From assembly GCA_021780195.1 (NCBI GenBank), contig JAJXZE010000001.1:1603-65602 (forward strand): 64,000 bases of DNA, given 5' to 3'. The notes under the pieces are model-generated. The model did no database searches. It worked only from the letters and a program-made list of their open reading frames with translations, and was not told the origin of the DNA. Source of the stretch: a bacterium. GTDB lineage: Bacteria > Patescibacteriota > Minisyncoccia > UBA6257 > 2-01-FULL-56-20. Position 1 is the stretch's first letter. The number at the start of each line of letters is the position of its first letter. This document shows, piece by piece, positions 435 through 57,304 of this stretch. The translations under genes were made by a program, and so were the position numbers.

Positions 435-435
435 A

Positions 436-1212: not shown

Positions 1213-1282
1213 CGCGGATAAATGATGTGCCAAGAGCCGAGCCTCCGTTCCAATAGGCGTGGATTGGAGGTACTATTAAGAT

Positions 1283-2314: not shown

Positions 2315-2316
2315 AT

Positions 2317-6966: not shown

Positions 6967-7018
6967 GCGATATAATAGTACGATGAAGCGCGGGGAAATC
7001 CCAGCCGCGCCGCCGCGC

Positions 7019-8362
7019 CTATTCCGGATTCACGAAAAGCGATTTCAGCGTCCGGAGAACGATCGCGAGGTCGAGGATCGGCGAGCGGTGCTTGAGATAA
7101 TAGATGTCGTACCGGAGCTTTTCGCGCACGTCGTCCGTCGTGCGGTCGGCGCGGTGGTTGATCTGCGCCCAGCCGGTCACGCCCGGGAGCGCGAGGAGGC
7201 GCACTTCGTAGAAGGGGACTTCGGCGCGGAGCTTTTCCACGAACTCGGGGCGCTCGGGGCGCGGGCCGACGAAGGAGAGATCGCCGCGCACGATGTTCCA
7301 GAGTTGGGGGAGCTCGTCGAGATGCGAGGTGCGGAGGAAGCGTCCGAAGGCCGTGATGCGCGGGTCGTGTGCGCCGTCCGCCCACCGGGCGCCGGTGCCC
7401 GCTTCGGCATCCGTGCGCATGGTACGGAACTTGTAGAGCGTGAAACGGCGTCCGTGCGCGCCCACGCGCGTCTGGCGGTAGATCGCGGGGCCGCGGGAGG
7501 TGACCGCGACGAGAAGCGCGATCGCGAGCTCGATGGGGAGAAGCGCAACGCCGATCGCGAGCGCGGCCGCGAATTCGATGCCGCGCTTGAACTGGTCATA
7601 GAAGCGTGCGGCGCCTTCGATGTTCTCGAGGAACCAGGTCTCTTCGACTTCGTCGAGCGGTACTTTCCGCATGACGGTTTCGTAGAGCGTTTCCACGTCC
7701 GTGACGGAGATGCCGCGGCCGAAAAGGGCGTAGAGTGCGGGGGCGAGCGCGCGGCGGCGCTTGAGCGCCGCGGGAACCGCAATGAGATTCGCCCGTGTTT
7801 CCGCGACGAGCGCCGCGAGGCGCTTCGGATCGCGCGCGGCTTCATCCTCGGCGAGCCGTGCGACGACCGCGTAGCCGAGCTGGACATTCGCCGTGAGGGT
7901 ATCCTCGATTTCCGCCGCCGCGCCGCCGTCGCCCACGAGGAGCAGGCGGTTCGGCGCCTCTCCCGACGCCGTCATGCGGTTGAAGAAGCGCCGCCAGAGC
8001 GCCTCAATGACGGCGAAGAGCACGAGGAAGATGAAAAGGTTCGTTTTCGGCGCGATGCCGAACGACGGCACGAGATAAAAGAGGAGCGAGGCGATGAGCG
8101 CGTTCGCGACGAGCGCGAGGGAGAGTGTTTTCAGGAAGTCGAGATTGTTGCGGAGGCGGCGGAGGTCGTAGAGGCCGGCGATGTAGAACACAAGGAGCCA
8201 GGGAATGAAGACGATGGTGAAGGGCGCCGCATGGATGTCCACGAACTGGCGCCAGAAGGCGCCATCATAGCGGATGAAGAGCGTGGCGAGGAGCGCGGCG
8301 TAAAGGAGTACGGCGTCGCCCGCAAAGAGGAGGAAAACCTTCAATTTACTGCCGCGGTTCAT
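7019..8362 (-). CDS. undecaprenyl-phosphate sugar phosphotransferase (WbaP/bacterial sugar transferase family, priming enzyme)
   Basis: C-terminal domain PAIYRQTRVGAHGRRFTLYKFRTMRTDAE ... ITAFGRFLRTSHLDELPQLWNIVRGDLSFVGPRPERPEF. Confidence 0.85.
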   Translation of the reverse strand: MNRGSKLKVFLLFAGDAVLLYAALLATLFIRYDGAFWRQFVDIHAAPFTIVFIPWLLVFYIAGLYDLRRLRNNLDFLKTLSLALVANALIASLLFYLVPSFGIAPKTNLFIFLVLFAVIEALWRRFFNRMTASGEAPNRLLLVGDGGAAAEIEDTLTANVQLGYAVVARLAEDEAARDPKRLAALVAETRANLIAVPAALKRRRALAPALYALFGRGISVTDVETLYETVMRKVPLDEVEETWFLENIEGAARFYDQFKRGIEFAAALAIGVALLPIELAIALLVAVTSRGPAIYRQTRVGAHGRRFTLYKFRTMRTDAEAGTGARWADGAHDPRITAFGRFLRTSHLDELPQLWNIVRGDLSFVGPRPERPEFVEKLRAEVPFYEVRLLALPGVTGWAQINHRADRTTDDVREKLRYDIYYLKHRSPILDLAIVLRTLKSLFVNPE

Positions 8363-8384
8363 GGTGCCCTCTTTGTATCATATT

Positions 8385-9143
8385 TTACCGCCCGGGGGAA
8401 TTCTTTTCCGGCGGTCCCGGCGGAACATATCCTTCGGTATAGGGACGGTGCGTGCGGATGATCCAGAGGAAGTTGAGTCCGTAGGTAATATACAATTTGA
8501 AGATGCCGTCCTTCGCGAGGCGCCTCCCCGAGCCGAGCACGAAGAATCCCATGTCGAATTTTACCTTGCCGACCTTGCTCAGGCGCCGCGCGGTGTCCGT
8601 GTCGTCGCCGTGGAACACAAGCGTCGTGTCGAGGCCGCCGATTTCCGTGAGGGCGTCGCGGCGGGCGACGAGGTTTGCGCCGAGCGCGGCGTACCCGAGG
8701 ATACGGTACGTGATCGGCGCAAATATCCACCAAAGGCCTTCGGCGAGGATCCGCGTGCGGAGGGAGAGGTCATAATAGCGGAAGGGGCCGCTCAGGCAGA
8801 CGAGCTTGGGGTTCGCCGCGAATTCCTTCTGGACTTTGGCGGCCCAGCCGTGGGGGATCCTTGCGTCGGCATCGAGATAGGCGACGAGCTCGCCGCGGGA
8901 TTCCCGGAAGCCGCGCTCGCGCGCCCAGTTCGTCCCGCGCCGCGTTTCTTTGACCACCCGCACACCGGGGATGACGGCCGCTTTTGCGGCGGTTCCGTCC
9001 GTCGAGGCATTGTCCACCACGATTATTTCGAGGAAGTCGGACGTCCAGTGCTTCCGGATGCTTTCGATGCAGGCCTCGATGTACCCCTCTTCGTTATAAG
9101 CCGGAATGACGAAACTGATGGTCATCAGCGGATAGGCTGCCAT
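8385..9143 (-). CDS. glycosyltransferase family 2
   Basis: MTISFVIPAYNEEGYIEACIESI ... YLDADA motifs. Confidence 0.75.
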   Translation of the reverse strand: MAAYPLMTISFVIPAYNEEGYIEACIESIRKHWTSDFLEIIVVDNASTDGTAAKAAVIPGVRVVKETRRGTNWARERGFRESRGELVAYLDADARIPHGWAAKVQKEFAANPKLVCLSGPFRYYDLSLRTRILAEGLWWIFAPITYRILGYAALGANLVARRDALTEIGGLDTTLVFHGDDTDTARRLSKVGKVKFDMGFFVLGSGRRLAKDGIFKLYITYGLNFLWIIRTHRPYTEGYVPPGPPEKNSPGR

Positions 9144-12299: not shown

Positions 12300-12542
12300 A
12301 TGGCCAGCGTAAAAATATACAGCACGCCGACGTGCGTCTACTGCAAAATGGCGAAGGATTTCTTCGCGGCGAATAACGTGAGCTACGAGGATTTCAATGT
12401 GGCGGCGGATCAGAACGCGCGCGCGGAGATGTTTGCGAAATCCCATCAGATGGGCGTGCCCGTGATCGACATCGACGGGAAGATCATCGTGGGCTTCGAT
12501 AAGAAGACCCTGGAGGACCTCCTTGCGGCGGGAAAGAAATAG
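12300..12542 (+). CDS. glutaredoxin-like protein (NrdH/Grx family, CxxC)
   Basis: MASVKIYSTPTCVYCKMAKDFF ... GVPVIDIDGKIIVGFD; start at the internal ATG of the longer ORF. Confidence 0.75.
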   Translation: MASVKIYSTPTCVYCKMAKDFFAANNVSYEDFNVAADQNARAEMFAKSHQMGVPVIDIDGKIIVGFDKKTLEDLLAAGKK

Positions 12543-12567
12543 GCCGGGCGATCATCCTTATATCCCT

Positions 12568-13485
12568 ATGTACGACCTTATCATCGTGGGCGCGGGGCCG
12601 GGCGGGGTCGCCGCCGGCGTATATGCCGCGCGGAAGAAAATAAAGACCCTCCTCATCACCGACAGCTTTGGCGGCCAGTCGGCGGTTTCGGGCGACATCC
12701 AGAACTGGATCGGGACGAAATCGATCTCAGGCTACGACCTCGCGAAGTCGCTCGAGGAGCACCTTCGTGCGCAGGAGGACATCGAAATCGTGGACGATGA
12801 TCTCGTGACGGGCGTCGCGAAGAGCGCGGGCGGCTTTACGGTGGCCACGAAGAACGGTAAGACCTACGAAACGAAATACGTCCTGATTGCCTCCGGGAGC
12901 CGGAGAAAGAAGCTCGGCATCGCGGGCGAAGCGCAGTACGACGGCAAGGGCGTGGTCTATTGCTCCACGTGCGACGCGCCGATCTTCAAGGACAAGGCGA
13001 CGGTCGTGGTGGGCGGCGGCAATTCCGCGCTTGAATCGGTGATGGATCTTATCCCGTATGCGTTGAAGATCTATCTCATGGTGCGTTCCGAGGCGCTTCG
13101 TGGCGACCCCGTATCGCAGGACAAGATCCGCGCGAACCCGAAAGTGGAGATCGTCTGGAATGCGGTGGCCGACGAGATCGCGGGAGGGGATTTTGTGACG
13201 GGCCTCAAGTATCACGACGCGAAGACGAATGAGGCGAAGGAGCTCACCGTGGAGGGCGTTTTCGTGGAGATCGGCCTTTTACCGAATTCGGATTTCGTGA
13301 AAGGGCTCGTGGATCTCGATCCGCGCGGCGACATCGTGACGGATCCCCGGACGCAATCGACTTCCGTCCCCGGCATCTGGGCGGTGGGGGACGTGACGGA
13401 CGGGCCGTACCGGCAGAACAACATCTCCGTGGGCGACGCCGTGAAGGCGGTGCTCAACATCTACGACCAGATTAAAAAATCATAA
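12568..13485 (+). CDS. trxB: thioredoxin-disulfide reductase
   Basis: [23 protein letters not shown] ... [25 protein letters not shown] ... GIWAVGDV (FAD/NADPH motifs and CxxC redox centre). Confidence 0.85.
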
Positions 13486-13587: not shown

Positions 13588-15569
<1,982 letters not shown>

Positions 15570-15623
15570 AAGCTCGTTGCGGCGGCGGCGGAACCGCGGT
15601 ATAATGCTCGTAATAACAAACCT

Positions 15624-16166
15624 ATGATCTACGCCTATATCGTTCTCGCGCTCATTGTGCTTTGGCTCATCCTGGCCTATAACGGCCTCGTCCGGACGCG
15701 GAACCGTACCCAGGAAGCGTATTCGGATATCGACGTTCAGCTCAAGCGGCGCTACGACCTCATCCCGAACCTCGTGGAGTCGGTGAAGGGCTACATGGCG
15801 CACGAGGCCGGCGTCTTTGAGAAGGTGACACGGGCACGATCGCAGGCGATGCAGGCGACGGGCATGGCGAAGGCCGGCGCGGAGGACGCGCTCTCCGGCG
15901 CTCTGAAATCGCTCTTCGCGGTCGCAGAGAACTACCCCCAGCTCAAGGCGAACGAGAATTTCCTCGACCTCCAGAACCAGCTCACGGACACCGAGGACAA
16001 GATCCAGGCCGCCCGCCGTTTCTACAACGGCATGGTGCGCGACCTGAACACAAAAATCCAGGTCTTCCCGACGAACCTCTTTGCGAGCATGCTTGGCTTC
16101 AAGGCGATGGACTTTTTCGGCAACCTGACGGATGCGGAGAAGGCCCCCGTGGCGGTGAAGTTCTAG
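15624..16166 (+). CDS. lemA: LemA family protein
   Basis: N-terminal TM plus LILAYNGLVRTRNRTQEAYSDIDVQLKRRYDLIPNLVE, characteristic of LemA. Confidence 0.8.
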   Translation: MIYAYIVLALIVLWLILAYNGLVRTRNRTQEAYSDIDVQLKRRYDLIPNLVESVKGYMAHEAGVFEKVTRARSQAMQATGMAKAGAEDALSGALKSLFAVAENYPQLKANENFLDLQNQLTDTEDKIQAARRFYNGMVRDLNTKIQVFPTNLFASMLGFKAMDFFGNLTDAEKAPVAVKF

Positions 16167-16191
16167 GCGGCGCTTTCTCCGGGCATTTTCC

Positions 16192-17094
16192 ATGGCGAAT
16201 CTCTACCAGTACCGGTCGGCGAATGTGCGGCGGACATGGCTCCTCTTTGCCGTGTTTTTCGTTGTCGTGGTCGGCGTCGGGTATGTATTCAGCATGGCGT
16301 ACGGCGACCCGAGCTTCGTGATCTTCGCGCTCGTCTTCAGTGTCGTCTATTCGCTCATCAGCTATTATTCGTCGGCGTCGATCGCGCTTTCTTTTGCGCG
16401 TGCGAAGCCGATCGAAAAGAAGGATGACCCGGAACTGTATAATCTTGTCGAAAATCTCTGCATCGCCTCTGGCCTCCCGATGCCGAAGCTTTATCTCACG
16501 CCCGAGATGCAGATCAACGCGTTCGCCACGGGCCGCGACCCTCAGCACGCCGCGGTCGCGGTGACCCTTGGCGCGCGCGAGCGCCTCAACAAGACGGAGC
16601 TCGAGGGCGTCCTTGCGCACGAACTCTCGCACGTCGGGAATCGCGATATCCTGGTCTCAACCGTCGCCGCGATCCTCGCGGGCATCATCTCGCTCATCGC
16701 GGATCTTTTCCTCCGGTCGCTCTTCTTCGGCGGGTTCGGCGGCGGCCGCCGTGGCGATGGGGAGGGGAACATGATCTTCATGCTTATCGGGATCGGACTC
16801 TCGATCCTCGCACCCATCGGCACCATGCTCATCCAGCTCGCGATCTCGCGCCGGCGCGAAGCGCTGGCCGACGCGTCGGGAGTCCTCCTTACGCGCTATC
16901 CCGAGGGTCTCATCTCGGCGCTCCGGAAGATCGCCGCCGACACGACACCCATGCGGAGTGCGAAGGATTCGACCGCGCACCTGTGGCTCGATACGCCTTT
17001 CAAGGGCAAGGGAACCTCGTGGTGGCACAAGCTCTTCATGACGCATCCCCCGATTGAGCAGCGCATCGCGGCATTGAAAGCGATCGCGGTTTAG
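16192..17094 (+). CDS. htpX: zinc metalloprotease HtpX (peptidase M48)
   Basis: HELSHVGNRD (HExxH) with four TM segments; conserved LemA-HtpX adjacency. Confidence 0.85.
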   Translation: MANLYQYRSANVRRTWLLFAVFFVVVVGVGYVFSMAYGDPSFVIFALVFSVVYSLISYYSSASIALSFARAKPIEKKDDPELYNLVENLCIASGLPMPKLYLTPEMQINAFATGRDPQHAAVAVTLGARERLNKTELEGVLAHELSHVGNRDILVSTVAAILAGIISLIADLFLRSLFFGGFGGGRRGDGEGNMIFMLIGIGLSILAPIGTMLIQLAISRRREALADASGVLLTRYPEGLISALRKIAADTTPMRSAKDSTAHLWLDTPFKGKGTSWWHKLFMTHPPIEQRIAALKAIAV

Positions 17095-17674: not shown

Positions 17675-18250
17675 ATGGCCACTGACAACCTTATTGCCAA
17701 ATTATACGAATCCCCCAAGACAATCCTGACCATTAAGGACATTGCTTTGATTTGGGGAGAAACAAACACCGTCAATCTTCTCACGAAGATAAAATACTAC
17801 GCGAAGCAAGGATCGCTGATTCGACTGACTCGTGGCGTATTTGCCAAAAACAAAGAGTATGATCTGAAAGAATTAGCAGGAAGTATCTATACTCCTTCTT
17901 ATATCAGTTTTGAAACCGTGCTCCGTGAGACCGGCATTATTTTTCAACATCACGATGCGATTTTTGTAGCCGGTCCCTATCCGATGACCAAGAAAATCGA
18001 CGATCACACGATCGTCTTTCGCAAACTGAAAGACAGCGTTTTATACAACGGGCTCGGCGTAAAAAAAGAAAAGAGCTATAGCATCGCTACGCCGGAGCGA
18101 GCATTCCTCGACACCATATATCTATCCCCTAAGTTTTATTTCGATAACTTGCGATCCATCAATTGGGATCAATGTTTTGAACTGGCAAAAATATACGATA
18201 ACAAACAATTGATCAAGCGGATAACTAAATATAAAAAACATGCTGAATAA
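17675..18250 (+). CDS. AbiEi-like antitoxin / transcriptional regulator (type IV TA, abortive infection)
   Basis: 191-aa protein in the AT-rich patch, placed directly upstream of and overlapping an AbiEii-type nucleotidyltransferase gene; wHTH-like N-terminus. The call rests on context and length plus weak pattern similarity. Confidence 0.6.
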   Translation: MATDNLIAKLYESPKTILTIKDIALIWGETNTVNLLTKIKYYAKQGSLIRLTRGVFAKNKEYDLKELAGSIYTPSYISFETVLRETGIIFQHHDAIFVAGPYPMTKKIDDHTIVFRKLKDSVLYNGLGVKKEKSYSIATPERAFLDTIYLSPKFYFDNLRSINWDQCFELAKIYDNKQLIKRITKYKKHAE

Positions 18251-18953
18251 AGAAAAACACCAACTCGTTATGGGGCAGATTTTGAGAGATATTTATTCCG
18301 ATACCTCCATATCTTCCCTGATCGGATTCAAGGGCGGCACCTGTGCTTATTTTTTCTATGGCCTGACAAGATTTTCTATAGACCTCGACTTCGACCTGTT
18401 TTCCACTGATGAAGCTACGCAAAAGCTCGTGTACGAAAGAATCGGTGGTATGTTGGAAAAATACGGAGAGGTCAAAGATAATTACATAAAACGAAACACC
18501 ATATTCTTCCTGCTTTCTTATGGCGATGCCGACCACAATGTGAAAATTGAAGTGAACATGAGAATTCTTATGCCGGATATCAAGGAGCACTACGAAGTAA
18601 AAGAATATCTGGGCATTTCTATGCTTGCGGGCAAAAAAGATTATCTTTTTGCGAGTAAGCTGGCCGCATTGACCACAAGAAGCGAAACGGCAATGCGTGA
18701 TGTGTATGACGTTTGGTTTTTTGGCACAAATCACTGGGATATAAACGTTGATGTGATCAAGGCAAGAACTGGCAAGACTATCAAAGAATACATGGCTGAT
18801 TGCCTTCCGGTTGTTGAGGCAATCAAAGATAATGAAATTTTGAGAGGATTGGCTGAGCTTTTGCCGGACGAAAAAGCAAAGGCGTGGGTAAAAACTCACT
18901 TAAGAAAAGAGGTTATCTTTCTGCTCAAAAATTACCAATCCGTATTAAAATGA
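18240..18953 (+). CDS. AbiEii/AbiGii-family nucleotidyltransferase toxin (DUF1814)
   Basis: FKGGTCAYFFYG (the GGT motif of the DUF1814 NTase family) and later D/E-rich motifs; 11-nt overlap with the upstream AbiEi-like gene. Confidence 0.7.
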   Translation: MLNKEKHQLVMGQILRDIYSDTSISSLIGFKGGTCAYFFYGLTRFSIDLDFDLFSTDEATQKLVYERIGGMLEKYGEVKDNYIKRNTIFFLLSYGDADHNVKIEVNMRILMPDIKEHYEVKEYLGISMLAGKKDYLFASKLAALTTRSETAMRDVYDVWFFGTNHWDINVDVIKARTGKTIKEYMADCLPVVEAIKDNEILRGLAELLPDEKAKAWVKTHLRKEVIFLLKNYQSVLK

Positions 18954-21532
18954 ACGGCCTTGCCAAAACCGACGCACTGAAATTCTCGCTCGCCGATCTT
19001 TATGCCAAGCTCGGCACGTCTGAACAGGGCCTTACCGAGAAAGAAGCCGGAAGCCGCCTCGCATCCTCGGGGCCGAACGTTCTCAAGCGAAAAAGCGTGA
19101 ACGCTCTGGACATCCTCGGCCGCCAATTGAAAAGTTCGCTCATTTATCTTCTCATTGGGGCAAGCCTCTTGGCGTACAGTATCCATGATTTTCGGGATGG
19201 CACGATCATCCTCGTCATTCTCCTGATCAACACCTCTCTCGGTTTTTATCAGGAATATAAATCAGAAAAAATCGTCGAAAAACTCTCACGTTTTATCACG
19301 AGGCAGGTCAGGGTAAGGCGCAATGGGCAGATTTCATTGGTTGACGAATCGCAAGTCGTCGTAGGCGACATCCTCATCGTCCGCGAGGGCGACATCGCTT
19401 CAGCTGACATGCGGCTCATCGATACCGAGGACCTGCGGGTCAACGAGTCGCAGCTTACGGGCGAGTCGGCGCCGGTCGCAAAACAGGATTCGACAGGTGC
19501 GGGCGCGAAACCGGAAAACATGCTTTTCACCGGCAGTGTCGTTGAGAAGGGCGAAGGCGTGGGGATTATTTATGCGACAGGAAATGATACGGAGCTTGGC
19601 GTGATCGCAAAGCTTTCCACGGAGACGAAGAAGCAGACGCAATACGAAAAATCGCTTCAGTCATTCAGCTCGTTCCTCATAAAAATTGTCCTAATCGGCC
19701 TTGCCATCATCTTTATCGCCAAATTTTTCCTCGCGCACGGCTCAGGCACCACCGACCTTCTTCTCTTCGTCATCGCGCTCGCCGTGGGAACGGTGCCGGA
19801 GGTGTTGCCCGTGATCGCAACGGTGACGCTTTCGGCGGGGGCGCTCAAGCTTGCCAAACAGCACGTTGTGGTGCGACGCCTGTCCGCCATGGAAGATTTC
19901 GGGAATATCAATCTTCTTTGCACCGACAAGACGGGTACCATCACCGAGAATAAAATGGTGGTAAAGAAAGTTACGGCAACTGACGAGAAGCTTTTTCAGG
20001 TTTTTGCCTATGCGGGTATCACGCCGCTCAAGGGGCGCAAGAAACGGACGCAGAATTCATATGACGAGGCCTTTTTACAGTACGCGTCCGAAGAAATAAA
20101 GAAGGAGGCGGGACATTTCAGGATCCTTAAAGAATTGCCGTTCGATCCCGAAGACCGGAGGAGCCGGTTGGTCGTTGAAAATACGGAGCACAAAAGATGC
20201 TATCTGCTTTCGATCGGCGCGCCGGAAACCTTATTGGCGATAAGCGGCGCAGGACATAAGGCGGAGTATCTCCGCGACATCGCCAAAGAGGGCGGAGAGG
20301 GATTGCACCATCTTGCCATTGCCTATAAAGAGATTTCATATTCAGACAACTTCGACATTTTGAAGAACGAACATGATCTGGCATTTCTTGGCTATGCGAG
20401 CATGGAAGATCCGCTGCGCCCCTCCGCAAAAAAAACCATCGAGCGCGCAGAACGTCTCTGCATCACGATAAAGATCCTTACGGGAGACGGCCGCGAAGTC
20501 GCCGAATACGTCGGGAAACAGATCGGACTTTTGAAGGAGGGCTCTAAGGTCTACCTTGGAGACGAACTGGAAGCGATGACACAGGACGAGTTCAAGGCCG
20601 CGGTCCAGCGCTCGACCATTTTTGCAAGAGTTTCCCCGACCCAGAAGTTCAATATCATCAAAGCCCTCAAGGAGACGAATGTCGTCGGATATCAGGGCGA
20701 CGGCATCAATGACGCTCCCGCCCTGAAGCTTGCGGACGTGGCGATCGCCGTGAATTCCGCAACCGACATCGCGAAAGAGAATGCGGACATCGTGCTTTTA
20801 AACAAAAGCCTGGAGGTCATCATCAACGGCATCAGGTATGGCCGCTCGATTTTCGTAAATATCAATAAATATATCCGTTATACGATGAGTAATAATTTCG
20901 GAGCGTTCGTCGGGCTTTCGACGCTGTATCTGCTCTCCGTCAATCTGCCGATTCTTCCGGTGCAGGTACTGCTCAATAACCTGTTCGGCGACATCCCGCT
21001 CATCATGGTCTCGACCGACACCGTCGAAGACGACGAGGTGGTACAGCCGGAACGACACAACATGCGTGAACTCATGTTCATATCGCTCATTCTCGGCGTT
21101 CCGACCGCGCTCTTCGAGATACTTTACTTCGCCACCATCAGGGCCCAAACAAGCTCGGTTGCGCAAACCAGCCTCTATGTCTTCCTTACGTTCCAGGCGC
21201 TCATCATCTTCTATGCCATTCGCAATAAAAAACATTTTTGGAAGGCAAAAATGTCGTCCGCCGCACTCAACATCTCATTTTTCCTGGCGTTCGTTCTTTC
21301 TCTCGGCATTATCTTCATCCCGCAGTTCCAGGCATGGTTCTCATTCGTACCGATCTCCGCAACGGCGATCGGCACCATTATGATACTCATGTTGCTCTAC
21401 TTCCTTGCCGTTGATTATGTGAAGGTTTGGTATTATCAGGGGACTCGGCTCGGCGGATTATATACCGAATCGGCAACGGCGGGGACCGCGGCGATGGGTG
21501 CTCATTCTGAAAAGCGGGGCGATCAATTTTAA
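18950..21532 (+). CDS. cation-transporting P-type ATPase (MgtA/Ca2+-ATPase-like, P-type II/III)
   Basis: CTDKTGTITENKM phosphorylation motif, GDGINDAPALKLADV hinge motif, about 10 TM segments; start at the internal ATG that overlaps the AbiEii stop (ATGA). Confidence 0.85.
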   Translation: MNGLAKTDALKFSLADLYAKLGTSEQGLTEKEAGSRLASSGPNVLKRKSVNALDILGRQLKSSLIYLLIGASLLAYSIHDFRDGTIILVILLINTSLGFYQEYKSEKIVEKLSRFITRQVRVRRNGQISLVDESQVVVGDILIVREGDIASADMRLIDTEDLRVNESQLTGESAPVAKQDSTGAGAKPENMLFTGSVVEKGEGVGIIYATGNDTELGVIAKLSTETKKQTQYEKSLQSFSSFLIKIVLIGLAIIFIAKFFLAHGSGTTDLLLFVIALAVGTVPEVLPVIATVTLSAGALKLAKQHVVVRRLSAMEDFGNINLLCTDKTGTITENKMVVKKVTATDEKLFQVFAYAGITPLKGRKKRTQNSYDEAFLQYASEEIKKEAGHFRILKELPFDPEDRRSRLVVENTEHKRCYLLSIGAPETLLAISGAGHKAEYLRDIAKEGGEGLHHLAIAYKEISYSDNFDILKNEHDLAFLGYASMEDPLRPSAKKTIERAERLCITIKILTGDGREVAEYVGKQIGLLKEGSKVYLGDELEAMTQDEFKAAVQRSTIFARVSPTQKFNIIKALKETNVVGYQGDGINDAPALKLADVAIAVNSATDIAKENADIVLLNKSLEVIINGIRYGRSIFVNINKYIRYTMSNNFGAFVGLSTLYLLSVNLPILPVQVLLNNLFGDIPLIMVSTDTVEDDEVVQPERHNMRELMFISLILGVPTALFEILYFATIRAQTSSVAQTSLYVFLTFQALIIFYAIRNKKHFWKAKMSSAALNISFFLAFVLSLGIIFIPQFQAWFSFVPISATAIGTIMILMLLYFLAVDYVKVWYYQGTRLGGLYTESATAGTAAMGAHSEKRGDQF

Positions 21533-21772: not shown

Positions 21773-22333
21773 CTAACGGGAAGACCAAACGATCCTCCCC
21801 GTATAGCCCGTGGTACGCCTTACAACGCCATTCGCGTCCGCGTTGACGCGGACATTGTGTACCCCGCCTACGAAGCTCGCCGTGCCCTTGCACAGGTTGA
21901 GCCCAATCGCGAGATACTTCCACTTGCCTCCGCGACGATACAGTCGCCTGGCAGACCAGTCCACCGCGAGGTTCAGGAGCGCGTTGGCAAGTACGACCTT
22001 GCTCGCGCTCCTGTCTCCGACGAAACTGGCCCAGCCGGTTTCCGTACCGCGGTAACGACCGAGGAACTTACCGTCTGTTCCTTGGCGCGCTATGGGCGGA
22101 TGATCCAGTACCATGGCCGTCGTTACTCCGTCTAACGACGTCCCCGCAATCAGGTACCACCTCGAGGCCTTGAAGAGAAGATCGGTCTTGCCCGACTCCT
22201 CCCGCGGCCGAAGGTTCACGTACCTGTTTGTCTGATACTGGACTTGGGCAAGGGCATGCGGTGCGGACGAACACAAGCCCACCGCAAACAATATCCACGC
22301 TGTCGCGCGGACGCCTCCTGGTTTTATTCTCAT
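21773..22333 (-). CDS. hypothetical secreted protein (signal peptide, AxA cleavage site)
   Basis: MRIKPGGVRATAWILFAVGLCSSAPHALAQ signal peptide; no recognisable motif. Confidence 0.45.
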   Translation of the reverse strand: MRIKPGGVRATAWILFAVGLCSSAPHALAQVQYQTNRYVNLRPREESGKTDLLFKASRWYLIAGTSLDGVTTAMVLDHPPIARQGTDGKFLGRYRGTETGWASFVGDRSASKVVLANALLNLAVDWSARRLYRRGGKWKYLAIGLNLCKGTASFVGGVHNVRVNADANGVVRRTTGYTGRIVWSSR

Positions 22334-22435: not shown

Positions 22436-22936
22436 ATGAATCAACATTTATCCTACATGGACGGCATCGCTCTCGCTGAATCAATACCGGATTCGGTTCT
22501 GCCTTATCCGGACGGCTCTTGGAACCGTGTCAAATATTTTTTTTGGCGCCTACTCACGCCGTGGTTCCCCGCGATCCAGGGCGGCTTTCTCCGCCTCGGC
22601 GTCATTCAGCATCCCGGGGGACGCGGGCGCTACCTCCTAGGACATCTCGCGCCGGGCATCGATGCTTCTCTCTTTGTGCGGCGCCTTGAGGCGGAAGGGG
22701 TGGGGAATCACTTTATTGCATGGACCGAGGAGGATCAGGTGCTCAGTCTTCGCAAGCTCGACGGTTTTGAACATCAGTATCATCTCCGCATTTTTGGGGA
22801 CGGCGAAGTGAGGGGACATTATGAATACACTCCGGAGGCGCATCCGGTGTGGCATCAAAAAGCGATTGGTATCGAGAGGCGGCGGGAGGATCTTTTGCGC
22901 TTACTTGGCGACTTGGTGGTGAAGTCGGATGAATAG
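22436..22936 (+). CDS. hypothetical protein
   Basis: Internal ATG of the 22244 ORF chosen because a TATAAT box abuts it; no recognisable domain. Confidence 0.35.
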   Translation: MNQHLSYMDGIALAESIPDSVLPYPDGSWNRVKYFFWRLLTPWFPAIQGGFLRLGVIQHPGGRGRYLLGHLAPGIDASLFVRRLEAEGVGNHFIAWTEEDQVLSLRKLDGFEHQYHLRIFGDGEVRGHYEYTPEAHPVWHQKAIGIERRREDLLRLLGDLVVKSDE

Positions 22937-22960: not shown

Positions 22961-24502
22961 CTATGCGAATCCCGGGAAGAAGTCGGTCTTGATCTGCGTG
23001 CGCGGGACGCCCATCTTCCGCAGGGTGTGCGTGAAGGCATCCGTCATGGCGTGCGTGCCGGAGAGATAGAACATGCGGTCGCGGTAATCGGGGATCGTGC
23101 GGCGGATAAGCGCGGCATCGATGCGCCCGTGGTGGTACCGATGCGCGCCGCCTTCGGGCACGTCGGGAAGTGCTTCCACGGCGTCCGTGATTGCATAGAC
23201 GGTGCGGAGGCCGATCGCGCGCTCGGCTTCCTCGATTACGTCGCGGTAGGAGATCTCGGCGAACGTGCGGTTGGAATAGAAGAGGGCGACGTCGCGCTTC
23301 TCACCGCGATCCGCGAGGTATTTCAGCATACTGCGGAAAGGCGTGATGCCGATGCCGCCGGCGATGAAGGCGAGCTTGCGGTTTTTCTCGCGCGGGAGCG
23401 TGAAGTCGCCGGCGAGCTGGCCCGCGGCGATCCGGTCGCCGTGTCCCATGCGGAGGAGCGCTTTTTTGAAACTGCTCGACGGTTCGTAGAATTTTACGCC
23501 GAGATGCAGTTCGCGCTCGGTGGGGGATGAAGCGATCGTGAAATACCGGCGGTTGCCGCGGCGGTCGCTCTTCTCATGCTCGAGCGTCCATTCGAGATAC
23601 TGGCCGGGCCGGAAACGCAGGCCCTGCGCGCCGGCGAACGCGAAGTCGTAGGTGTCCGTGCCGGTCTCTTCGCGCCGCTTAAGCGTGAGGAGATAGCGCC
23701 CTTTGGGGCTCGCGAAATAGGCGAAGACGTTGCCGACGAGAAGCGCGAGCTCGGGCGTGGAATAGATCGAGCCGAGGTGCACCGCGGGCGCGAAGAGGAC
23801 GCCGACGAGTGCGCCGTAGATCACGCGCCGCCGCCGCGTAGGGGGCGTGGTCAGGGGCTCCGTGAGCATCACGAATGCGAAGAAGAAGAGCGGCGCGTGA
23901 ACGAGCGCCTTTTCGATCGAGGACAGGGGATCGCCCGCGGGCGAGGTGAGGGCGATCGTCGCGAGTGCGGCGACGAAGAATGCGGCGATAAGGTCGAAGC
24001 GCTGGATCTTCCGTACGATGAGAAGGCCGCCCAGGACGACGAACGCGAGCATCGGGAGGTTGCCGCCTACCCACCAGTTCGCGGACGCGCCGATCGTGAA
24101 GGCGGTCAGGGCCACCGCGAAGGCGGCCGGATTGAAGAGATGTTTTTTGCCGATCGCAAAGATATATTTCGACGCCATTGCCCAGATCGCGGCCCAGACG
24201 AGGAAGGCGACGCCCGCGGCGTTCGCGGGCGTCGCCGGTGCGATGATGAGGGCCAAAATGAGCGCGGTGATATAGACGGACTCTACGTTCGCGTGCGCGT
24301 CGAAGGCGCGCGCGAAGAGCCGGTTCGTGACCCAGGAGACGAAGATGAGGAGTGCGATCGAGAAGGCGAGCGCGGCGGGGCTGATGGGGAGGATGCCGAA
24401 TGCGCCGAAAACGGCGGCGAGCGCGGCGAGGAAGATCAGGTAGTACAGCACGAGGCGGTACATGGTGATCCGGTTGAGGAACGAATCAATGAAGCTAAGC
24501 AT
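22961..24502 (-). CDS. membrane flavoprotein oxidoreductase: N-terminal RnfD/NqrB-like polytopic domain fused to a C-terminal ferredoxin-NADP reductase-like (FAD/NAD(P)-binding) domain
   Basis: About 8 TM helices with an LTEPLTTPP segment, then RRYFTIAS (RxYS/T FAD motif) and IAGGIGITP (NAD(P)-binding GxGxxP). Confidence 0.6.
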   Translation of the reverse strand: MLSFIDSFLNRITMYRLVLYYLIFLAALAAVFGAFGILPISPAALAFSIALLIFVSWVTNRLFARAFDAHANVESVYITALILALIIAPATPANAAGVAFLVWAAIWAMASKYIFAIGKKHLFNPAAFAVALTAFTIGASANWWVGGNLPMLAFVVLGGLLIVRKIQRFDLIAAFFVAALATIALTSPAGDPLSSIEKALVHAPLFFFAFVMLTEPLTTPPTRRRRVIYGALVGVLFAPAVHLGSIYSTPELALLVGNVFAYFASPKGRYLLTLKRREETGTDTYDFAFAGAQGLRFRPGQYLEWTLEHEKSDRRGNRRYFTIASSPTERELHLGVKFYEPSSSFKKALLRMGHGDRIAAGQLAGDFTLPREKNRKLAFIAGGIGITPFRSMLKYLADRGEKRDVALFYSNRTFAEISYRDVIEEAERAIGLRTVYAITDAVEALPDVPEGGAHRYHHGRIDAALIRRTIPDYRDRMFYLSGTHAMTDAFTHTLRKMGVPRTQIKTDFFPGFA

Positions 24503-24511
24503 GTGGGTGGA

Positions 24512-25270
24512 TTATTCGACGACGTAGTGCGAGAATCCTCTGGTCATCGTGGCTATTTTATCATGTCCGATCATATATGCCTCGAACCCCGCGAGGCGCT
24601 CGATGAAAAGAAGCCCCTTTTTGCCCATCGCGAACGCGGCCGTCGCAAAACGATCCGCTTCGTAGATATTGGGGCCGACGACCGTCAGGCTCACGATCTC
24701 CTCTGCGGGCCTGCGGCCGTTTTTCGGGTCATAAATGTGCGGCCCGCGGATATACGTGCCGGAGGTCGCGACGCCCTGGCCGCTCGCCTGGATCACCTTC
24801 ACGTGCTCGGCCTCGTTCCAGGGATTCTTGATGCCGATGCGCCACTTTTTCCCCTCCGCGTTCCTGCCGTGCGGCTGGATGTCGCCGCCGGCGTCCACGT
24901 AAAAATCGGAGAAGCCCTTCGCGAGAAGGATCTGCGCCGCGTTCCAAATGGCCCATCCCTTCACGAGGCCGGAAGGATCGAGCGTCCCTGCGGGCGTCAC
25001 GATGTCGAAGTATCCTTTCGTTTTCTTTTTGGTCTCTTCGGAAAGCTTAAGGACCTGCTTCATCTCTTCGCTCGCGTCCTCGGGCGAAAGATCGCGGCGG
25101 TTGATCGCCGAGATCTCGCTCGTCGTTTTGTAGGTGCTGAACTTTTCGTCCACCGAGCGGAAATAATCAAAAACGGCGTCGGCCACCGCGTGTACCGCCG
25201 CCGCGCCGCCCGCGCCGTTCGGGATTTCGACCGTGACCGGCATGCCCATGATGATCCGCGTCTCTTTCAT
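24512..25270 (-). CDS. apbE: FAD:protein FMN transferase (ApbE family flavin transferase)
   Basis: MKETRIIMGMPVTVEI ... GFSDFYVDAGGDIQPHG ... ApbE-typical pattern; 252 aa. Confidence 0.75.
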   Translation of the reverse strand: MKETRIIMGMPVTVEIPNGAGGAAAVHAVADAVFDYFRSVDEKFSTYKTTSEISAINRRDLSPEDASEEMKQVLKLSEETKKKTKGYFDIVTPAGTLDPSGLVKGWAIWNAAQILLAKGFSDFYVDAGGDIQPHGRNAEGKKWRIGIKNPWNEAEHVKVIQASGQGVATSGTYIRGPHIYDPKNGRRPAEEIVSLTVVGPNIYEADRFATAAFAMGKKGLLFIERLAGFEAYMIGHDKIATMTRGFSHYVVE

Positions 25271-25281
25271 CGCGCGGGATG

Positions 25282-25860
25282 TTATGCCTTGGCGGCCTGG
25301 AGCGTCGCGGCGAGCGACTGCATGAAGGCCTCGCTTGTCTGCGTGGCTCCCGACACGACGTCCACGTTCGCGCTCTGCGCCTGGATCGCTTCCTGCGTGA
25401 GCTGGGGCATGGCCATGCCGTTGATCGCGCGCGAGGTGCCGCGGTCGTTCGGATACTGCAGGAACTCGACGTCGGTTACTTTGCCGTTTATGACCACCGT
25501 CCTTACCTGCACGCTACCGAAATAGGCGTCGGCGACCGGGCCGATGTAGGCGCCGTCCTTATATTGGCCGCTCATCATGCCTGGACCCATCCCCGCGCCG
25601 GCACTCATGCCCATGCCGTTTCCCGCGCCGGCGCCCGAGGGAGATGCGCCCGCGACGGAAGGCGCCTGGGAAATCGGCTGGTTCGCGCCCTGGCCGGCGC
25701 TTACGCCGGCTCCCGCTCCCGCACCCGCGCCAAAACCTGCGCCGGTATTCGCGCCGGTGCCGCCCGCGCCCGGCCCGACCTGGACGGAGTTCTGATTCTC
25801 GAGCATCACGTAGAACGCGAAAACGACGATCAACGCAAAGGAGAGCAAATATTTTTTCAT
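25282..25860 (-). CDS. extracytoplasmic FMN-binding domain protein (flavinylation substrate; signal/TM anchor plus Gly/Ala-rich linker)
   Basis: N-terminal TM, low-complexity GAGFGAGAGAGAG linker, and the C-terminal VDVVSGATQTSEAF motif ([S/T]GAT flavinylation motif of FMN_bind domains). Confidence 0.7.
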   Translation of the reverse strand: MKKYLLSFALIVVFAFYVMLENQNSVQVGPGAGGTGANTGAGFGAGAGAGAGVSAGQGANQPISQAPSVAGASPSGAGAGNGMGMSAGAGMGPGMMSGQYKDGAYIGPVADAYFGSVQVRTVVINGKVTDVEFLQYPNDRGTSRAINGMAMPQLTQEAIQAQSANVDVVSGATQTSEAFMQSLAATLQAAKA

Positions 25861-25987
25861 ATGCCCCTATTATACAAGAATGCGCGATGATTTGTTTCAT
25901 TGCGCGGCGCGCAAGCTTGTGCGCGGGCCGTGTGGCCGCGCGCCTTTGCGCCTTTGCGCGCGTTCCACGGCGGGGTAGAATAAGCCC

Positions 25988-56993: not shown

Positions 56994-57304
56994 ATAAGCG
57001 GTGCGTCTGCAGGGTGGAACCCCACGACAAGATCGACCTCGCCGAGTTCAGTGGAATCGCGGAGCAAATGAAGTTCCTCTCGACGCCGAGCCGGATCGCC
57101 ATCCTTTCGCTTCTCTATAAGGCACCGCACTGCGTCTGCGATCTTGAAACGCATACCGGTTTGTCGCAAACGCTCCTTTCCCATCATTTGAAGGATCTTG
57201 CGAAAGGGGGATTGGTGGCGAGCGCAAAAGAAAAAACATTTGTGGAATATCGATTGACTACGAAGGGCCGAAAACTGGTGCGGATGATAGGGCAAATCAA
57301 GTGA
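56984..57304 (+). CDS. arsR: ArsR/SmtB-family transcriptional regulator
   Basis: PSRIAILSLLYKAPHCVCDLETHTGLSQTLLSHHLKDLAKGGLV (wHTH with CVC metal-sensing motif). Confidence 0.75.
   Translation: MFIYKRCVCRVEPHDKIDLAEFSGIAEQMKFLSTPSRIAILSLLYKAPHCVCDLETHTGLSQTLLSHHLKDLAKGGLVASAKEKTFVEYRLTTKGRKLVRMIGQIK

What the first reader, a model, noticed from the sequence alone, without database searches (positions are those of the whole stretch)
22961..25860. Three-gene flavinylation module: extracytoplasmic FMN-binding protein, ApbE flavin transferase, and membrane RnfD/NqrB-like::FNR-like oxidoreductase
Seen in sequence:
- A signal/TM-anchored protein ends in the [S/T]GAT flavinylation motif (VDVVSGATQTSEAF).
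- An ApbE-family gene lies between.
- The third gene fuses a polytopic RnfD/NqrB-like domain to an FNR-like FAD/NAD(P) domain (RRYFTIAS, GGIGITP).

Established knowledge: ApbE covalently attaches FMN to threonine in [S/T]GA[S/T] motifs of extracytosolic FMN-binding domains (NqrC, RnfG, PplA and others). Comparative genomics has reported many uncharacterised ApbE-associated clusters.

Inference: this is a minimal trans-membrane electron conduit from cytoplasmic NAD(P)H to an extracytoplasmic flavoprotein, with no full NQR/RNF complex. It would be a candidate extracellular electron transfer or periplasmic redox-repair system in an organism with otherwise limited respiratory content.
Basis: partly seen in the sequence, partly recalled or inferred. 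Interest (0 to 1): 0.7.

Follow-up and report, generated by a model that had tools for sequence, protein, structure and literature searches.

The report
Known NQR/RNF-like flavin electron conduit operon
This three-gene operon in a candidate-phyla-radiation bacterium is a clear example of the already described but never experimentally tested "NQR/RNF-like" system, thought to pass electrons from NAD(P)H inside the cell to a flavin-carrying protein outside; the one odd feature is that its flavin-attaching enzyme has no export signal.

Summary
Three tightly spaced minus-strand genes encode:
- a membrane-anchored FMN_bind protein with a DVVSGAT flavinylation motif;
- an ApbE flavin transferase;
- a 10-helix RnfD/NqrB-like domain fused to an FNR-type NAD(P)H/FAD domain.

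This architecture is the operational definition of the "NQR/RNF-like" flavinylation-associated system of Méheust et al. 2021 (127 genomes, mainly Actinobacteria and CPR). Huang et al. 2024 modelled it with AlphaFold-multimer.

The source is a Patescibacteria MAG. The gene order recurs in 61 of 80 species-level loci. The membrane domain has 370 representatives at E≤1e-30.

Added here:
- The ~75-residue periplasmic insert of RnfD that carries the flavinylated threonine is absent, not merely mutated.
- Positive-inside counts strongly support an FNR-in topology and moderately support an FMN-domain-out one.
- The cluster's ApbE is a compact clade (~247 aa) that lacks any export signal in every lineage examined. 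This sits awkwardly with an extracytoplasmic substrate, and neither paper I read discusses it.
- An OmpR/HisKA two-component pair lies beside the operon in 24 of 70 mapped relatives, but not here.

Function and acceptor remain untested. Novelty: new member of a known kind. Interest 0.3.

The parts
25282..25860 (-). Gene 1: membrane-anchored FMN_bind protein (192 aa), NqrC/RnfG-like. It is the predicted ApbE substrate.
   Evidence: PF04205, E=1.1e-8. Best solved relative is 8p2a, E=2.7e-13, with the flavinylated Thr aligned. Conserved upstream partner in 55 of 70 gene-called loci.
25795..25851 (-). N-terminal signal-anchor helix of the FMN_bind protein (residues 4-22, preceded by MKK).
   Evidence: Kyte-Doolittle mean 1.88-2.5. 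The family-wide 'MKK-h-LS..h...F.Y' pattern is conserved. N-flank K+R averages 2.1 against 1.3 for the C-flank, which favours N-in/C-out.
25561..25794 (-). Gly/Ala-rich low-complexity tether (residues 23-100) between the anchor and the FMN domain.
   Evidence: 25 Gly and 16 Ala in 78 residues. Across relatives, the distance from the end of the TM helix to the motif varies from 91 to 248 residues.
25297..25545 (-). FMN_bind domain proper (residues 106-188).
   Evidence: Alignment to 8p2a_A residues 6-87. Pfam stretch 115-187.
25342..25362 (-). Flavinylation motif D167-V-V-S-G-A-T173. The T173 codon (25342-25344) is the predicted FMN attachment site.
   Evidence: A [ST]G[AS][ST] motif, mostly preceded by D or N, is kept in 56 of 57 relatives and always lies 18-20 residues from the C-terminus. 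It is the only such motif in the window.
24512..25270 (-). Gene 2: compact, signal-less ApbE-family FAD:protein FMN transferase (252 aa).
   Evidence: PF02424, E=9.2e-43. Matches solved ApbEs at E=1e-21 to 2e-8. No hydrophobic N-terminus. The upstream in-frame translation is hydrophilic. 50 syntenic orthologues (median 247 aa) and the 120 closest database relatives (238-271 aa) likewise start at the first beta-strand.
22961..24502 (-). Gene 3: RnfD/NqrB-like membrane domain fused to an FNR-like NAD(P)H/FAD domain (513 aa).
   Evidence: PF03116 plus PF00175. AF2 model with mean pLDDT 83.9 shows 10 TM helices, then a beta-barrel, then a Rossmann fold. Thousands of database hits; the 120 closest are all ~500-aa proteins, most carrying both Pfam domains.
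23699..24502 (-). RnfD/NqrB-like 10-helix membrane domain (residues 1-268).
   Evidence: hhalign to E. coli RsxD: probability 92%, E=7.6e-8. Profile hit to RnfD 8ahx_D. Positive-inside count 7 against 0. Family size 370 representatives at E<=1e-30.
24059..24091 (-). Short outer loop GASANWWVGGN (residues 138-148). It occupies the place of the ~75-residue periplasmic insert of RnfD/NqrB that carries the flavinylated Thr.
   Evidence: In the hhalign alignment, RsxD residues ~146-222, including S-Q-A-T187, have no counterpart. No [ST]G[AS][ST] motif in the protein.
23840..23863 (-). Conserved TEPLTTPP helix-break motif, the counterpart of RnfD 'TDPVTxS'.
   Evidence: Invariant E215, P216, T218 and P220 in the family. 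Aligned to RnfD.
22964..23698 (-). Cytoplasmic FNR-like domain (residues 269-513). Contains the FAD motif RRYFTIAS (23528-23551), the NAD(P)H motif GGIGITP (23339-23359), YSNR (23267-23278) and the C-terminal FFPGFA.
   Evidence: PF00175. NCBIfam flavohemoprotein-type alignment over residues 294-509. Profile and Foldseek hits to flavohemoglobin reductase, NqrF and NOX dehydrogenase domains. Motif coordinates.
25861..25987 (.). 127-nt divergent intergenic region between the operon and the M13 peptidase gene. Presumed promoter region.
   Evidence: Position only. The sigma-70 consensus scan found nothing here, so this is an inference.

Best explanation
The locus is an operon for the 'NQR/RNF-like' flavinylation-associated transmembrane electron-transfer system in a Patescibacteria (CPR) genome.

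Proposed mechanism:
1. The C-terminal FNR-like domain of the fusion protein, in the cytoplasm, oxidises NAD(P)H and reduces its FAD.
2. Electrons enter the 10-helix RnfD/NqrB-like domain. By homology with NqrB, this domain is built to hold flavins on both sides of the membrane.
3. This family has lost the loop that carries the covalent FMN in RnfD/NqrB. That position is filled in trans by the covalently flavinylated Thr173 of the small FMN_bind subunit.
4. The FMN_bind subunit is held in the membrane by an N-terminal helix and hangs on a long Gly/Ala tether on the outer face.
5. The tethered flavin domain passes electrons on to an external acceptor that is not encoded in the operon. Candidates are Fe(III), soluble flavins or quinones, O2, or envelope proteins.
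6. The net effect is one-way NAD(P)+ regeneration, or extracytoplasmic reduction, without the return path and ion-pumping subunits of full NQR/RNF.
7. ApbE attaches FMN to Thr173 from FAD.

Shown here: gene content, domain identities, motif, loss of the flavinylation insert, topology by charge bias, and synteny.

Inferred: cofactor content of the membrane domain, direction of electron flow, the acceptor, and where and when ApbE acts.
For: - Domain assignments.
- Operon spacing of 11 and 9 nt.
- Sole flavinylation motif in the 64 kb lies in the FMN_bind protein.
- FMN_bind -> ApbE -> fusion order in 61 of 80 loci spanning many CPR classes, Hyphomicrobiales, Ktedonobacteraceae and Acidobacteria.
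- Topology: K+R 7 against 0 (out) for the fusion, 8.4 against 0.2 across 41 homologues. The FMN_bind anchor is N-in biased.
- The RnfD insert with T187 is absent.
- No other RNF/NQR subunit nearby.
- The published model is identical. Definition and proposed one-way flow: PMC8238504. A high-confidence AlphaFold-multimer model of the Ktedonobacter racemifer complex puts the NqrC/RnfG-like flavinylation site at the flavin pocket of the NqrB/RnfD-like subunit, whose own Thr is not conserved: PMC10979944.
- VIT1 iron transporters neighbour 6 of 70 loci, echoing the paper's iron-assimilation hint.
Against: - No member of this system has been characterised experimentally in the literature I could search.
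- ApbE here, in all 50 syntenic orthologues and in the 120 closest relatives, has no signal peptide or lipobox. Known signal-less ApbEs serve cytoplasmic substrates, and periplasmic location is essential for canonical ApbE (PMC12052999). How an outward-facing domain gets flavinylated is therefore unexplained.
- The charge bias of the FMN_bind anchor is only moderate: N>C in 31, equal in 21, N<C in 5.
- No acceptor gene is linked in this window.
- Non-covalent flavin sites in the membrane domain are inferred from NqrB homology at low sequence identity (24%).
Confidence: 0.6

Rival explanations
1. All-cytoplasmic flavin chemistry. ApbE and the FMN_bind domain are both cytoplasmic, with the anchor helix oriented N-out or acting only as a membrane tether. 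The complex would then be a membrane-bound NAD(P)H-oxidising enzyme. Its flavinylated domain shuttles electrons on the inner face to the RnfD/NqrB-like domain, to reduce a membrane-soluble acceptor or to drive ion movement, rather than exporting electrons.
For: - ApbE lacks an export signal throughout the clade.
- Precedent that ApbE location matches substrate location: cytoplasmic Klebsiella ApbE with a soluble fumarate reductase, and periplasmic location being essential for canonical ApbE (PMC12052999).
- The charge bias of the anchor is equal or reversed in 26 of 57 homologues.
Against: - In the window protein the anchor has +2 on the N-flank and -1 on the C-flank, and the family mean favours N-in.
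- RnfG/NqrC homologues with the same architecture face outward (established knowledge of NQR/RNF).
- The pocket vacated by loss of the RnfD flavinylation insert is on the outer face, in the loop between TM5 and TM6.
- The published multimer model docks the flavinylation site at that pocket (PMC10979944).
- From my own knowledge, CPR bacteria generally lack quinones, which leaves no obvious membrane acceptor.
Confidence: 0.15
2. Same outward-facing conduit, but matured in an unusual way. Cytoplasmic ApbE flavinylates the C-terminal motif of the still unfolded FMN_bind polypeptide before or during Sec-dependent translocation. This avoids the need to export FAD.
For: - Signal-less ApbE clade.
- ApbE can modify a tag as short as seven residues and works best near a terminus (PMC12052999).
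- The motif always lies 18-20 residues from the C-terminus.
- No FAD or flavin exporter gene was seen in the window or the related loci.
Against: - I found no precedent for translocating a flavinylated chain.
- The near-C-terminal position of the motif is a general property of FMN_bind domains, not a special adaptation.
- Whole genomes could not be examined, so a second, exported ApbE or a flavin exporter encoded elsewhere cannot be excluded.
Confidence: 0.2
3. The system is specifically an assimilatory ferric reductase. It supplies Fe(II) for uptake, as proposed for the members that neighbour VIT1.
For: - VIT1 (PF01988, E=1e-73) neighbours the operon in 6 of 70 loci.
- The same association was noted in six clusters in PMC8238504.
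- A two-component system lies next to it in 24 of 70 loci, which suggests regulated rather than constitutive use.
Against: - There is no VIT1, FeoB or other iron-uptake gene beside the operon in this window. Its neighbours are an M13 peptidase, GyrB, two unannotatable small ORFs and a P-type ATPase.
- More than 90% of loci lack VIT1.
Confidence: 0.15
4. The cluster is a decayed, non-functional remnant of an RNF/NQR operon.
For: Only two of six subunit types remain, and the flavinylation insert of RnfD is lost.
Against: - All three ORFs are intact.
- 46 invariant columns in the membrane domain across sequences down to 46% identity.
- 370 representatives at E<=1e-30.
- Conserved synteny across phyla.
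- The FNR fusion is a gain, not a loss.
Confidence: 0.02

Closest known systems
NQR/RNF-like flavinylation-associated system (Méheust et al. 2021, eLife, PMC8238504; Huang et al. 2024, PMC10979944)
   Same: - Identical architecture: an NqrB/RnfD (PF03116) plus NAD-binding (PF00175) fusion, next to apbE and a membrane-anchored FMN_bind gene.
- Reported mainly in Actinobacteria and CPR.
- The flavinylated Thr of NqrB/RnfD is not conserved.
- Proposed one-way NAD(P)H-to-outside electron flow.
   Different: Nothing essential; this locus is a member. Points added here that neither paper discusses in the text I read:
- The whole ~75-residue insert is missing, rather than only the Thr.
- The associated ApbE is a signal-less compact clade.
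- A two-component pair is a frequent neighbour.
- Close homologues occur in cultured Mesorhizobium species.
Na+-NQR (NqrA-F) and RNF (RnfA-E,G) complexes
   Same: - Homologous NqrB/RnfD membrane subunit.
- Homologous NqrC/RnfG-type FMN_bind subunit with an ApbE-attached FMN.
- An NqrF-like FNR module as NADH entry point.
   Different: - Only two structural proteins instead of six.
- No NqrD/E or RnfA/E Fe-S core, and no RnfB/C or NqrA.
- The NqrF-like domain is fused to the NqrB-like domain and lacks the 2Fe-2S ferredoxin part.
- No covalent FMN site in the B/D-like subunit.
- No return path, so ion pumping is not expected.
Listeria flavin-based extracellular electron transfer (Ndh2-DMK-EetA/B-PplA with FmnB)
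   Same: - A monoderm cell exports electrons from NADH to an ApbE-flavinylated, membrane-tethered extracellular FMN_bind protein.
- The FMN_bind protein here gives a weak NCBIfam hit to PplA (E=0.0014).
   Different: - The Listeria route goes through a quinone (DMK) and EetA/B, and uses a lipoprotein ApbE (FmnB) plus an ECF flavin exporter.
- This locus has no quinone step, lipobox or exporter, and has a single FMN domain.
MsrQ-like/PepSY-like::NAD_binding fusions and NOX/FRE ferric reductases
   Same: The same logic of a polytopic membrane redox domain fused to a cytoplasmic FNR-type dehydrogenase. Foldseek finds the SpNOX and DUOX dehydrogenase domains.
   Different: Those move electrons across the membrane through two b-type haems. 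This membrane domain is an RnfD/NqrB fold, presumed to be flavin-only.
Cytoplasmic ApbE of Klebsiella pneumoniae, with NADH:fumarate reductase
   Same: An ApbE without a signal peptide, dedicated to a neighbouring FMN_bind-containing substrate.
   Different: The Klebsiella substrate is a soluble cytoplasmic enzyme. The substrate here carries an N-terminal membrane anchor and is predicted to face outward.

Membership tests
NQR/RNF-like flavinylation-associated system (Méheust 2021) | [quoted passage not shown] | tested here: met
   PF03116 at 39.8 bits (cut-off 27.7) over residues 147-261. PF00175 at 49.9 bits (cut-off 22) over residues 379-489. Definition taken from PMC8238504.
NQR/RNF-like flavinylation-associated system (Méheust 2021) | Encoded within a flavinylation-associated cluster: ApbE and/or FMN_bind within five genes, with at least one of them carrying a signal peptide or lipidation site | tested here: met
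   ApbE and FMN_bind lie immediately upstream, with gaps of 9 and 11 nt. FMN_bind has an N-terminal hydrophobic signal-anchor. SignalP itself was not available. ApbE has no signal.
NQR/RNF-like flavinylation-associated system (Huang 2024) | The flavinylation Thr of NqrB/RnfD is not conserved in the membrane subunit | tested here: met
   No [ST]G[AS][ST] motif in the protein. The RsxD insert that includes T187 has no counterpart.
NQR/RNF-like flavinylation-associated system (Huang 2024) | The FMN_bind subunit docks so that its covalent FMN reaches the flavin pocket of the NqrB/RnfD-like subunit | not testable with these tools
   Only single-chain prediction is offered, and model coordinates are not exposed. 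Published only for the Ktedonobacter complex.
Canonical RNF / Na+-NQR complex | Six-subunit operon: RnfABCDGE or NqrABCDEF | tested here: not met
   No other RNF/NQR Pfam family within +/-10 kb or among the larger ORFs of the window.
Canonical RNF / Na+-NQR complex | Covalent FMN on a Thr of the RnfD/NqrB subunit | tested here: not met
   Motif and insert are both absent.
ApbE FAD:protein FMN transferase (PF02424) | ApbE fold and family signature | tested here: met
   147 bits against a cut-off of 25.6. E=1e-21 to 2e-8 against 13 solved ApbE/Ftp chains.
ApbE FAD:protein FMN transferase (PF02424) | N-terminal lipoprotein or secretion signal (typical of characterised extracytoplasmic ApbEs, though not universal) | tested here: not met
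   The protein starts MKETRIIMGMPVTVEI, which is the first beta-strand of the fold. There is no hydrophobic leader, no hidden upstream extension, and the same holds for the 120 closest relatives.
ApbE FAD:protein FMN transferase (PF02424) | Mg2+-dependent transfer of FMN from FAD to the target Thr | not testable with these tools
   Needs a co-expression or in-vitro assay.
FMN_bind ApbE substrate (NqrC/RnfG/PplA type, PF04205) | FMN_bind domain with a D-x-x-[ST]-G-A-[ST] motif | tested here: met
   PF04205, E=1.1e-8. D167-V-V-S-G-A-T173. The Thr aligns with the flavinylated Thr context of 8p2a.
FMN_bind ApbE substrate (NqrC/RnfG/PplA type, PF04205) | Covalently bound FMN on the motif Thr | not testable with these tools
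   Needs UV-fluorescent SDS-PAGE or mass spectrometry.
FNR-like NAD(P)H:flavin oxidoreductase module | FAD-binding beta-barrel (RxY[ST]-type motif) followed by a GxGxxP NAD(P)H-binding Rossmann domain | tested here: met
   - PF00175.
- Full-module alignments to flavohemoprotein, NqrF and b5-reductase entries.
- The AF2 model shows the barrel followed by the Rossmann fold, and Foldseek gives E~1e-16 to 1e-11.
- Motifs R319-Y-F-T322 and G383-I-G-I-T-P388.
- The Pfam FAD_binding_6 HMM itself did not reach E<=0.01 on this protein.

The most novel reading that the evidence does not exclude
The dedicated ApbE of this system works in the cytoplasm, yet its only substrate ends up outside the membrane. 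Covalent flavinylation would then happen before or during export of the FMN_bind subunit, with a flavin-bearing polypeptide passing the translocon. This would be a maturation route not known for any ApbE target, and it would free genome-reduced CPR cells from having to export FAD. The alternative consequence of a cytoplasmic ApbE is that the FMN domain stays inside, which would overturn the published 'extracytosolic' assignment of the whole NQR/RNF-like class.
Probability: 0.3. Interest if true: 0.6.

Novelty: new member of a known kind. Interest (0 to 1): 0.3.

Why it matters
CPR/Patescibacteria have no conventional respiratory chain, so a two-protein, all-flavin route for disposing of NAD(P)H electrons outside the cell could be central to their redox balance, and perhaps to their interaction with host cells.

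The system is widespread. There are 370 representatives at 50% identity with E≤1e-30, and near-complete operons occur in cultured Mesorhizobium species. Yet I found no experimental study of it.

The value of this locus is as a clean, typical example. The analysis also sharpens two testable points:
- the complete loss of the RnfD flavinylation insert, consistent with the flavin being supplied in trans;
- the clade-wide absence of an export signal on ApbE, which raises the question of where flavinylation happens.

The finding does not reveal a new kind of system.

Tried and rejected
- **Single-sequence phmmer of the membrane domain against PDB:** no hit. A family profile was needed.
- **Full-length profile and Foldseek searches:** swamped by FNR-domain hits, so they gave no residue-level NqrB/RnfD mapping. 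Solved by fetching E. coli rsxD and running hhalign locally.
- **eLife supplementary file 1:** I wanted to see how the authors scored ApbE signal peptides in their NQR/RNF-like clusters, but that sheet was truncated in the held copy.
- **Linker-joined fusion-plus-FMN_bind paired alignment:** prepared to test which membrane face the subunit docks on, but never submitted for prediction.
- **Promoter and terminator consensus scans:** at or near shuffle expectation, with nothing in the upstream intergenic region.
- **Fused FMN_bind-ApbE product by read-through or frameshift:** considered and rejected. The two genes are in different frames, the gap has no start codon, the upstream in-frame peptide is hydrophilic, and none of the 120 closest ApbE relatives is a fusion.
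- **The 649-aa plus-strand ORF 23576-25525 overlapping the operon:** considered and rejected as an antisense artefact of high GC content. It is Arg/Glu-rich and overlaps two well-supported genes.
- **Additional flavinylation targets or paralogues in the window:** none found.

Full report
**1. The observation**

Pfam assigns them as follows:
- FMN_bind (PF04205, E=1.1e-8);
- ApbE (PF02424, E=9.2e-43);
- for the third protein, NQR2_RnfD_RnfE (PF03116, E=4.6e-10, residues 147-261) plus NAD_binding_1 (PF00175, E=5.6e-13, residues 379-489).

All four hits are above the curated cut-offs. NCBIfam agrees: there are rnfD, rsxD and nqrB hits on the membrane half, and flavohemoprotein, NqrF and Fre-type reductase hits on residues ~270-509.

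The quoted motifs are present at the expected positions: DVVSGAT (residues 167-173), RRYFTIAS (318-325) and GGIGITP (382-388). The genes are separated by 11 and 9 nt, so they form an operon. The FMN_bind protein is the only ORF of 60 aa or more in the whole 64-kb window that carries a [DN]xx[ST]GA[ST] motif. There are no paralogues of any of the three genes in the window.

**2. Source and surroundings**

The exact fusion protein is encoded on contig DAIEIM010000004.1 of MAG GCA_027352685.1. Its closest relatives (59-69% identity) are annotated Minisyncoccia, Paceibacterota or Patescibacteria, so the organism is a CPR bacterium.

The neighbours within +/-10 kb are:
- an M13 peptidase (divergent) and GyrB;
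- two small ORFs with no Pfam match;
- a P-type cation ATPase and an AbiEii-like gene;
- GroES/EL, NusG, SecE and similar housekeeping genes.

The rest of the window holds housekeeping and envelope genes and no respiratory complex. No acceptor, transporter or regulator is linked to the operon in this genome.

**3. Anatomy of the fusion protein**

An AlphaFold2 model built on 41 homologues (mean pLDDT 83.9) shows ten transmembrane helices, followed by a beta-barrel and a Rossmann domain.

Taking the loops between those helices alternately, the 'inside' set of the window protein holds 7 Lys/Arg and the 'outside' set holds none. Across the 41 homologues the means are 8.4 and 0.2. This is a strong positive-inside signal for N-in/C-in, which places the FNR domain in the cytoplasm where NAD(P)H is.

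A single-sequence search of the membrane half against the PDB found nothing. A family profile hit only RnfD (8ahx_D, E=0.005), across the conserved TEPLTTPP/TDPVTSP helix. An hhalign comparison with E. coli RsxD is colinear over the whole domain (probability 92%, E=7.6e-8).

That alignment shows that RsxD residues ~146-222 have no counterpart here. This is the periplasmic insert between TM5 and TM6, and it contains the flavinylated Thr187 (S-Q-A-T). The family has only a short conserved loop in its place: GASANWWVGGN in the window protein, with A141, W143, W144 and G147 invariant. The membrane protein therefore cannot be an ApbE substrate, and it contains no [ST]G[AS][ST] motif.

The FNR half matches flavohemoglobin reductase, NqrF, cytochrome b5 reductase and NOX dehydrogenase domains by sequence profile and by fold. 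A conserved Y-S-N-R after the second Rossmann strand hints at NADPH use. That is inference only.

**4. The FMN_bind subunit**

It has three parts:
- An MKK-preceded hydrophobic helix (residues 4-22).
- A 78-residue tether containing 25 Gly and 16 Ala.
- An ~85-residue FMN_bind domain. Its best solved relative is 8p2a (E=2.7e-13), with the flavinylated threonine aligned.

In 57 family members the anchor's N-flank carries on average 2.1 Lys/Arg and the C-flank 1.3 (N>C in 31, equal in 21, N<C in 5). In the window protein the net charges are +2 and -1. This favours N-in/C-out, the orientation of NqrC and RnfG, but it is a weaker signal than for the fusion protein.

The motif is kept in 56 of 57 members and always lies 18-20 residues from the C-terminus. 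The tether length varies from ~90 to ~250 residues.

**5. ApbE, and an unexplained point**

The ApbE matches 13 solved ApbE/Ftp chains (E=1e-21 to 2e-8). It is compact and begins directly with the first beta-strand of the fold (MKETRIIMGMPVTVEI).

It has no hydrophobic leader. There is no start codon further upstream in its frame, and the upstream in-frame peptide is hydrophilic. This is not an artefact of one genome:
- 50 syntenic orthologues from different species have a median length of 247 aa and the same start.
- The 120 closest database relatives are 238-271 aa with PF02424 as their only domain.

Neither paper that describes this system discusses ApbE localisation in the text I could read. 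The relevant supplementary sheet was truncated.

The same review notes that ApbE can modify a seven-residue tag, best near a terminus. Flavinylation of the unfolded C-terminal region before export is therefore conceivable. I record this as unexplained. It underlies two of the rival explanations and the 'novel case'.

**6. Relatives and neighbourhoods**

A scan of one genome per species returned 80 loci at 44-68% identity. They come from:
- many CPR lineages (Paceibacterota, Microgenomates-type groups, Gracilibacteria, Peregrinibacteria, Doudnabacteria and bins labelled Saccharibacteria);
- Ktedonobacteraceae and Acidobacteria;
- more surprisingly, cultured Mesorhizobium species and other Hyphomicrobiales.

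The order FMN_bind, ApbE, fusion is found in 61 of 80 loci. In about a dozen, FMN_bind directly precedes the fusion without ApbE, and several loci have a second FMN_bind gene.

Clustering the flanking genes found no universally conserved fourth component. The recurrent neighbours are:
- an OmpR-type response regulator plus HisKA kinase, in 24 of 70 mapped loci;
- VIT1, in 6 loci;
- NADPH-dependent FMN reductase, in 6 loci;
- secreted SH3 or CAP proteins, in a few loci.

None of these is present next to the operon in this window.

An exhaustive search with the membrane domain alone found 370 representatives (50%-identity clusters) at E≤1e-30 and 853 at E≤1e-10. Most are ~500-aa fusions.

**7. 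Comparison with what is known**

Méheust et al. (2021) defined an 'NQR/RNF-like' system operationally as a PF03116+PF00175 fusion inside a flavinylation-associated gene cluster. [quoted passage not shown] They added an iron-assimilation hint from six VIT1-linked clusters (PMC8238504).

Huang et al. (2024) modelled the Ktedonobacter racemifer complex with AlphaFold-multimer. They reported that the NqrB/RnfD flavinylation site is not conserved, and that the flavinylation site of the NqrC/RnfG-like subunit sits next to the flavin pocket of the NqrB/RnfD-like subunit (PMC10979944).

The present locus meets every testable defining feature (see the membership table). I found no experimental characterisation in the searchable literature.

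It is not a canonical RNF or NQR complex, because four of the six subunit types and the covalent-FMN site of the D/B subunit are missing. It works like the outbound half of NQR, with the NqrB segment run in reverse. It is analogous in logic to NOX/FRE and to the MsrQ-like::NAD_binding fusions, but with flavins in place of haems.

**8. Most likely mechanism**

- Shown: gene and domain content, motif, operon structure, topology by charge bias, loss of the flavinylation insert, and synteny.
- Inferred from homology and from the published model: NAD(P)H reduces FAD in the cytoplasmic FNR domain; electrons cross through flavin(s) bound in the RnfD/NqrB-like domain; they are picked up at the outer face by FMN covalently attached to Thr173 of the tethered subunit; that subunit reduces an external acceptor not encoded in the operon.
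- Unknown: the acceptor, NADH or NADPH preference, the number of non-covalent flavins, and where ApbE acts.

I put 0.6 on this mechanism overall, and about 0.9 on the narrower statement that the locus belongs to the NQR/RNF-like class.

**9. Verdict**

However, the 'minimal conduit' idea is already in the literature for exactly this architecture and this group of organisms. The finding is a new member of a known, though experimentally untested, kind.

The points added here are:
- complete loss of the RnfD flavinylation insert;
- quantitative topology;
- a signal-less ApbE clade;
- the two-component system association;
- homologues in culturable Mesorhizobium, which make the system testable.

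Interest 0.3. The most novel reading that is not excluded is cytoplasmic flavinylation of an exported subunit, or alternatively an inward-facing FMN domain that would overturn the published topology. I give it probability ~0.3, with interest ~0.6 if true.

Noticed in passing
window 24512-25270 (-), and the ApbE genes in L003-L082: The ApbE of this gene cluster lacks any signal peptide or lipobox in every lineage examined (median 247 aa, starting at the first beta-strand). Its only apparent substrate has a signal-anchor and is predicted to face outward. The two papers that define the system do not discuss this in the text I read.
   Followed up: partly
L034, L042, L043, L059 (Mesorhizobium spp.); L044, L061 (Phyllobacterium); L072 (Devosia); L046, L078 (Bauldia); L064, L069 (Ktedonobacteraceae); L036, L039 (Acidobacteria): The complete operon occurs at 47-57% amino-acid identity to the CPR version in cultured alphaproteobacteria and in other phyla. 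This suggests cross-phylum transfer and provides genetically tractable hosts for experiments.
   Followed up: partly
e.g. L042:7514-9519, L033:1308-2952, L032, L036, L053, L075, L079: An OmpR-type response regulator plus HisKA histidine kinase pair lies directly beside the operon in 24 of 70 mapped loci, upstream, downstream or convergent. It is absent from this window. The signal it senses is unknown.
   Followed up: partly
L016, L032, L033, L036, L041, L053, L065, L067: Some relatives carry a second, shorter FMN_bind gene (134-147 aa) in the cluster. In three of these loci a secreted SH3_3-domain protein lies between the two copies.
   Followed up: no
window 1-5500: This region has GC ~0.45 against ~0.62 for most of the window. 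It encodes two GT2 and two GT4 glycosyltransferases next to a Polysacc_synt flippase (5482-6966, minus strand). It is probably an acquired surface-glycan island.
   Followed up: no
window 18225-21532: A P-type cation ATPase (18884-21532, plus strand) lies in a GC dip (0.47-0.53), next to an AbiEii-family toxin-like gene (18225-18899, minus strand). Possibly horizontally acquired.
   Followed up: no
window 23576-25525 (+) and 13914-16193 (-): Very long ORFs run antisense to well-supported genes (the operon itself, and GroEL at 13923-15569). They are Arg/Glu/Gly-rich and have no family hits, so they are high-GC artefacts rather than genes.
   Followed up: yes
window 43624-45990 (+), 6842-8461 (+), 21773-22333 (-), 22457-22936 (+): Four ORFs have no Pfam match: 788 aa, 539 aa, 186 aa (with a signal-peptide-like N-terminus) and 159 aa. 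The last two lie just downstream of the operon but are not conserved next to it in relatives.
   Followed up: partly
window 57301-58512 (+) and 12523-13485 (+): A chromate-transporter family gene and a thioredoxin-reductase-like Pyr_redox_2 gene are the only other redox- or metal-related genes seen in the window.
   Followed up: no
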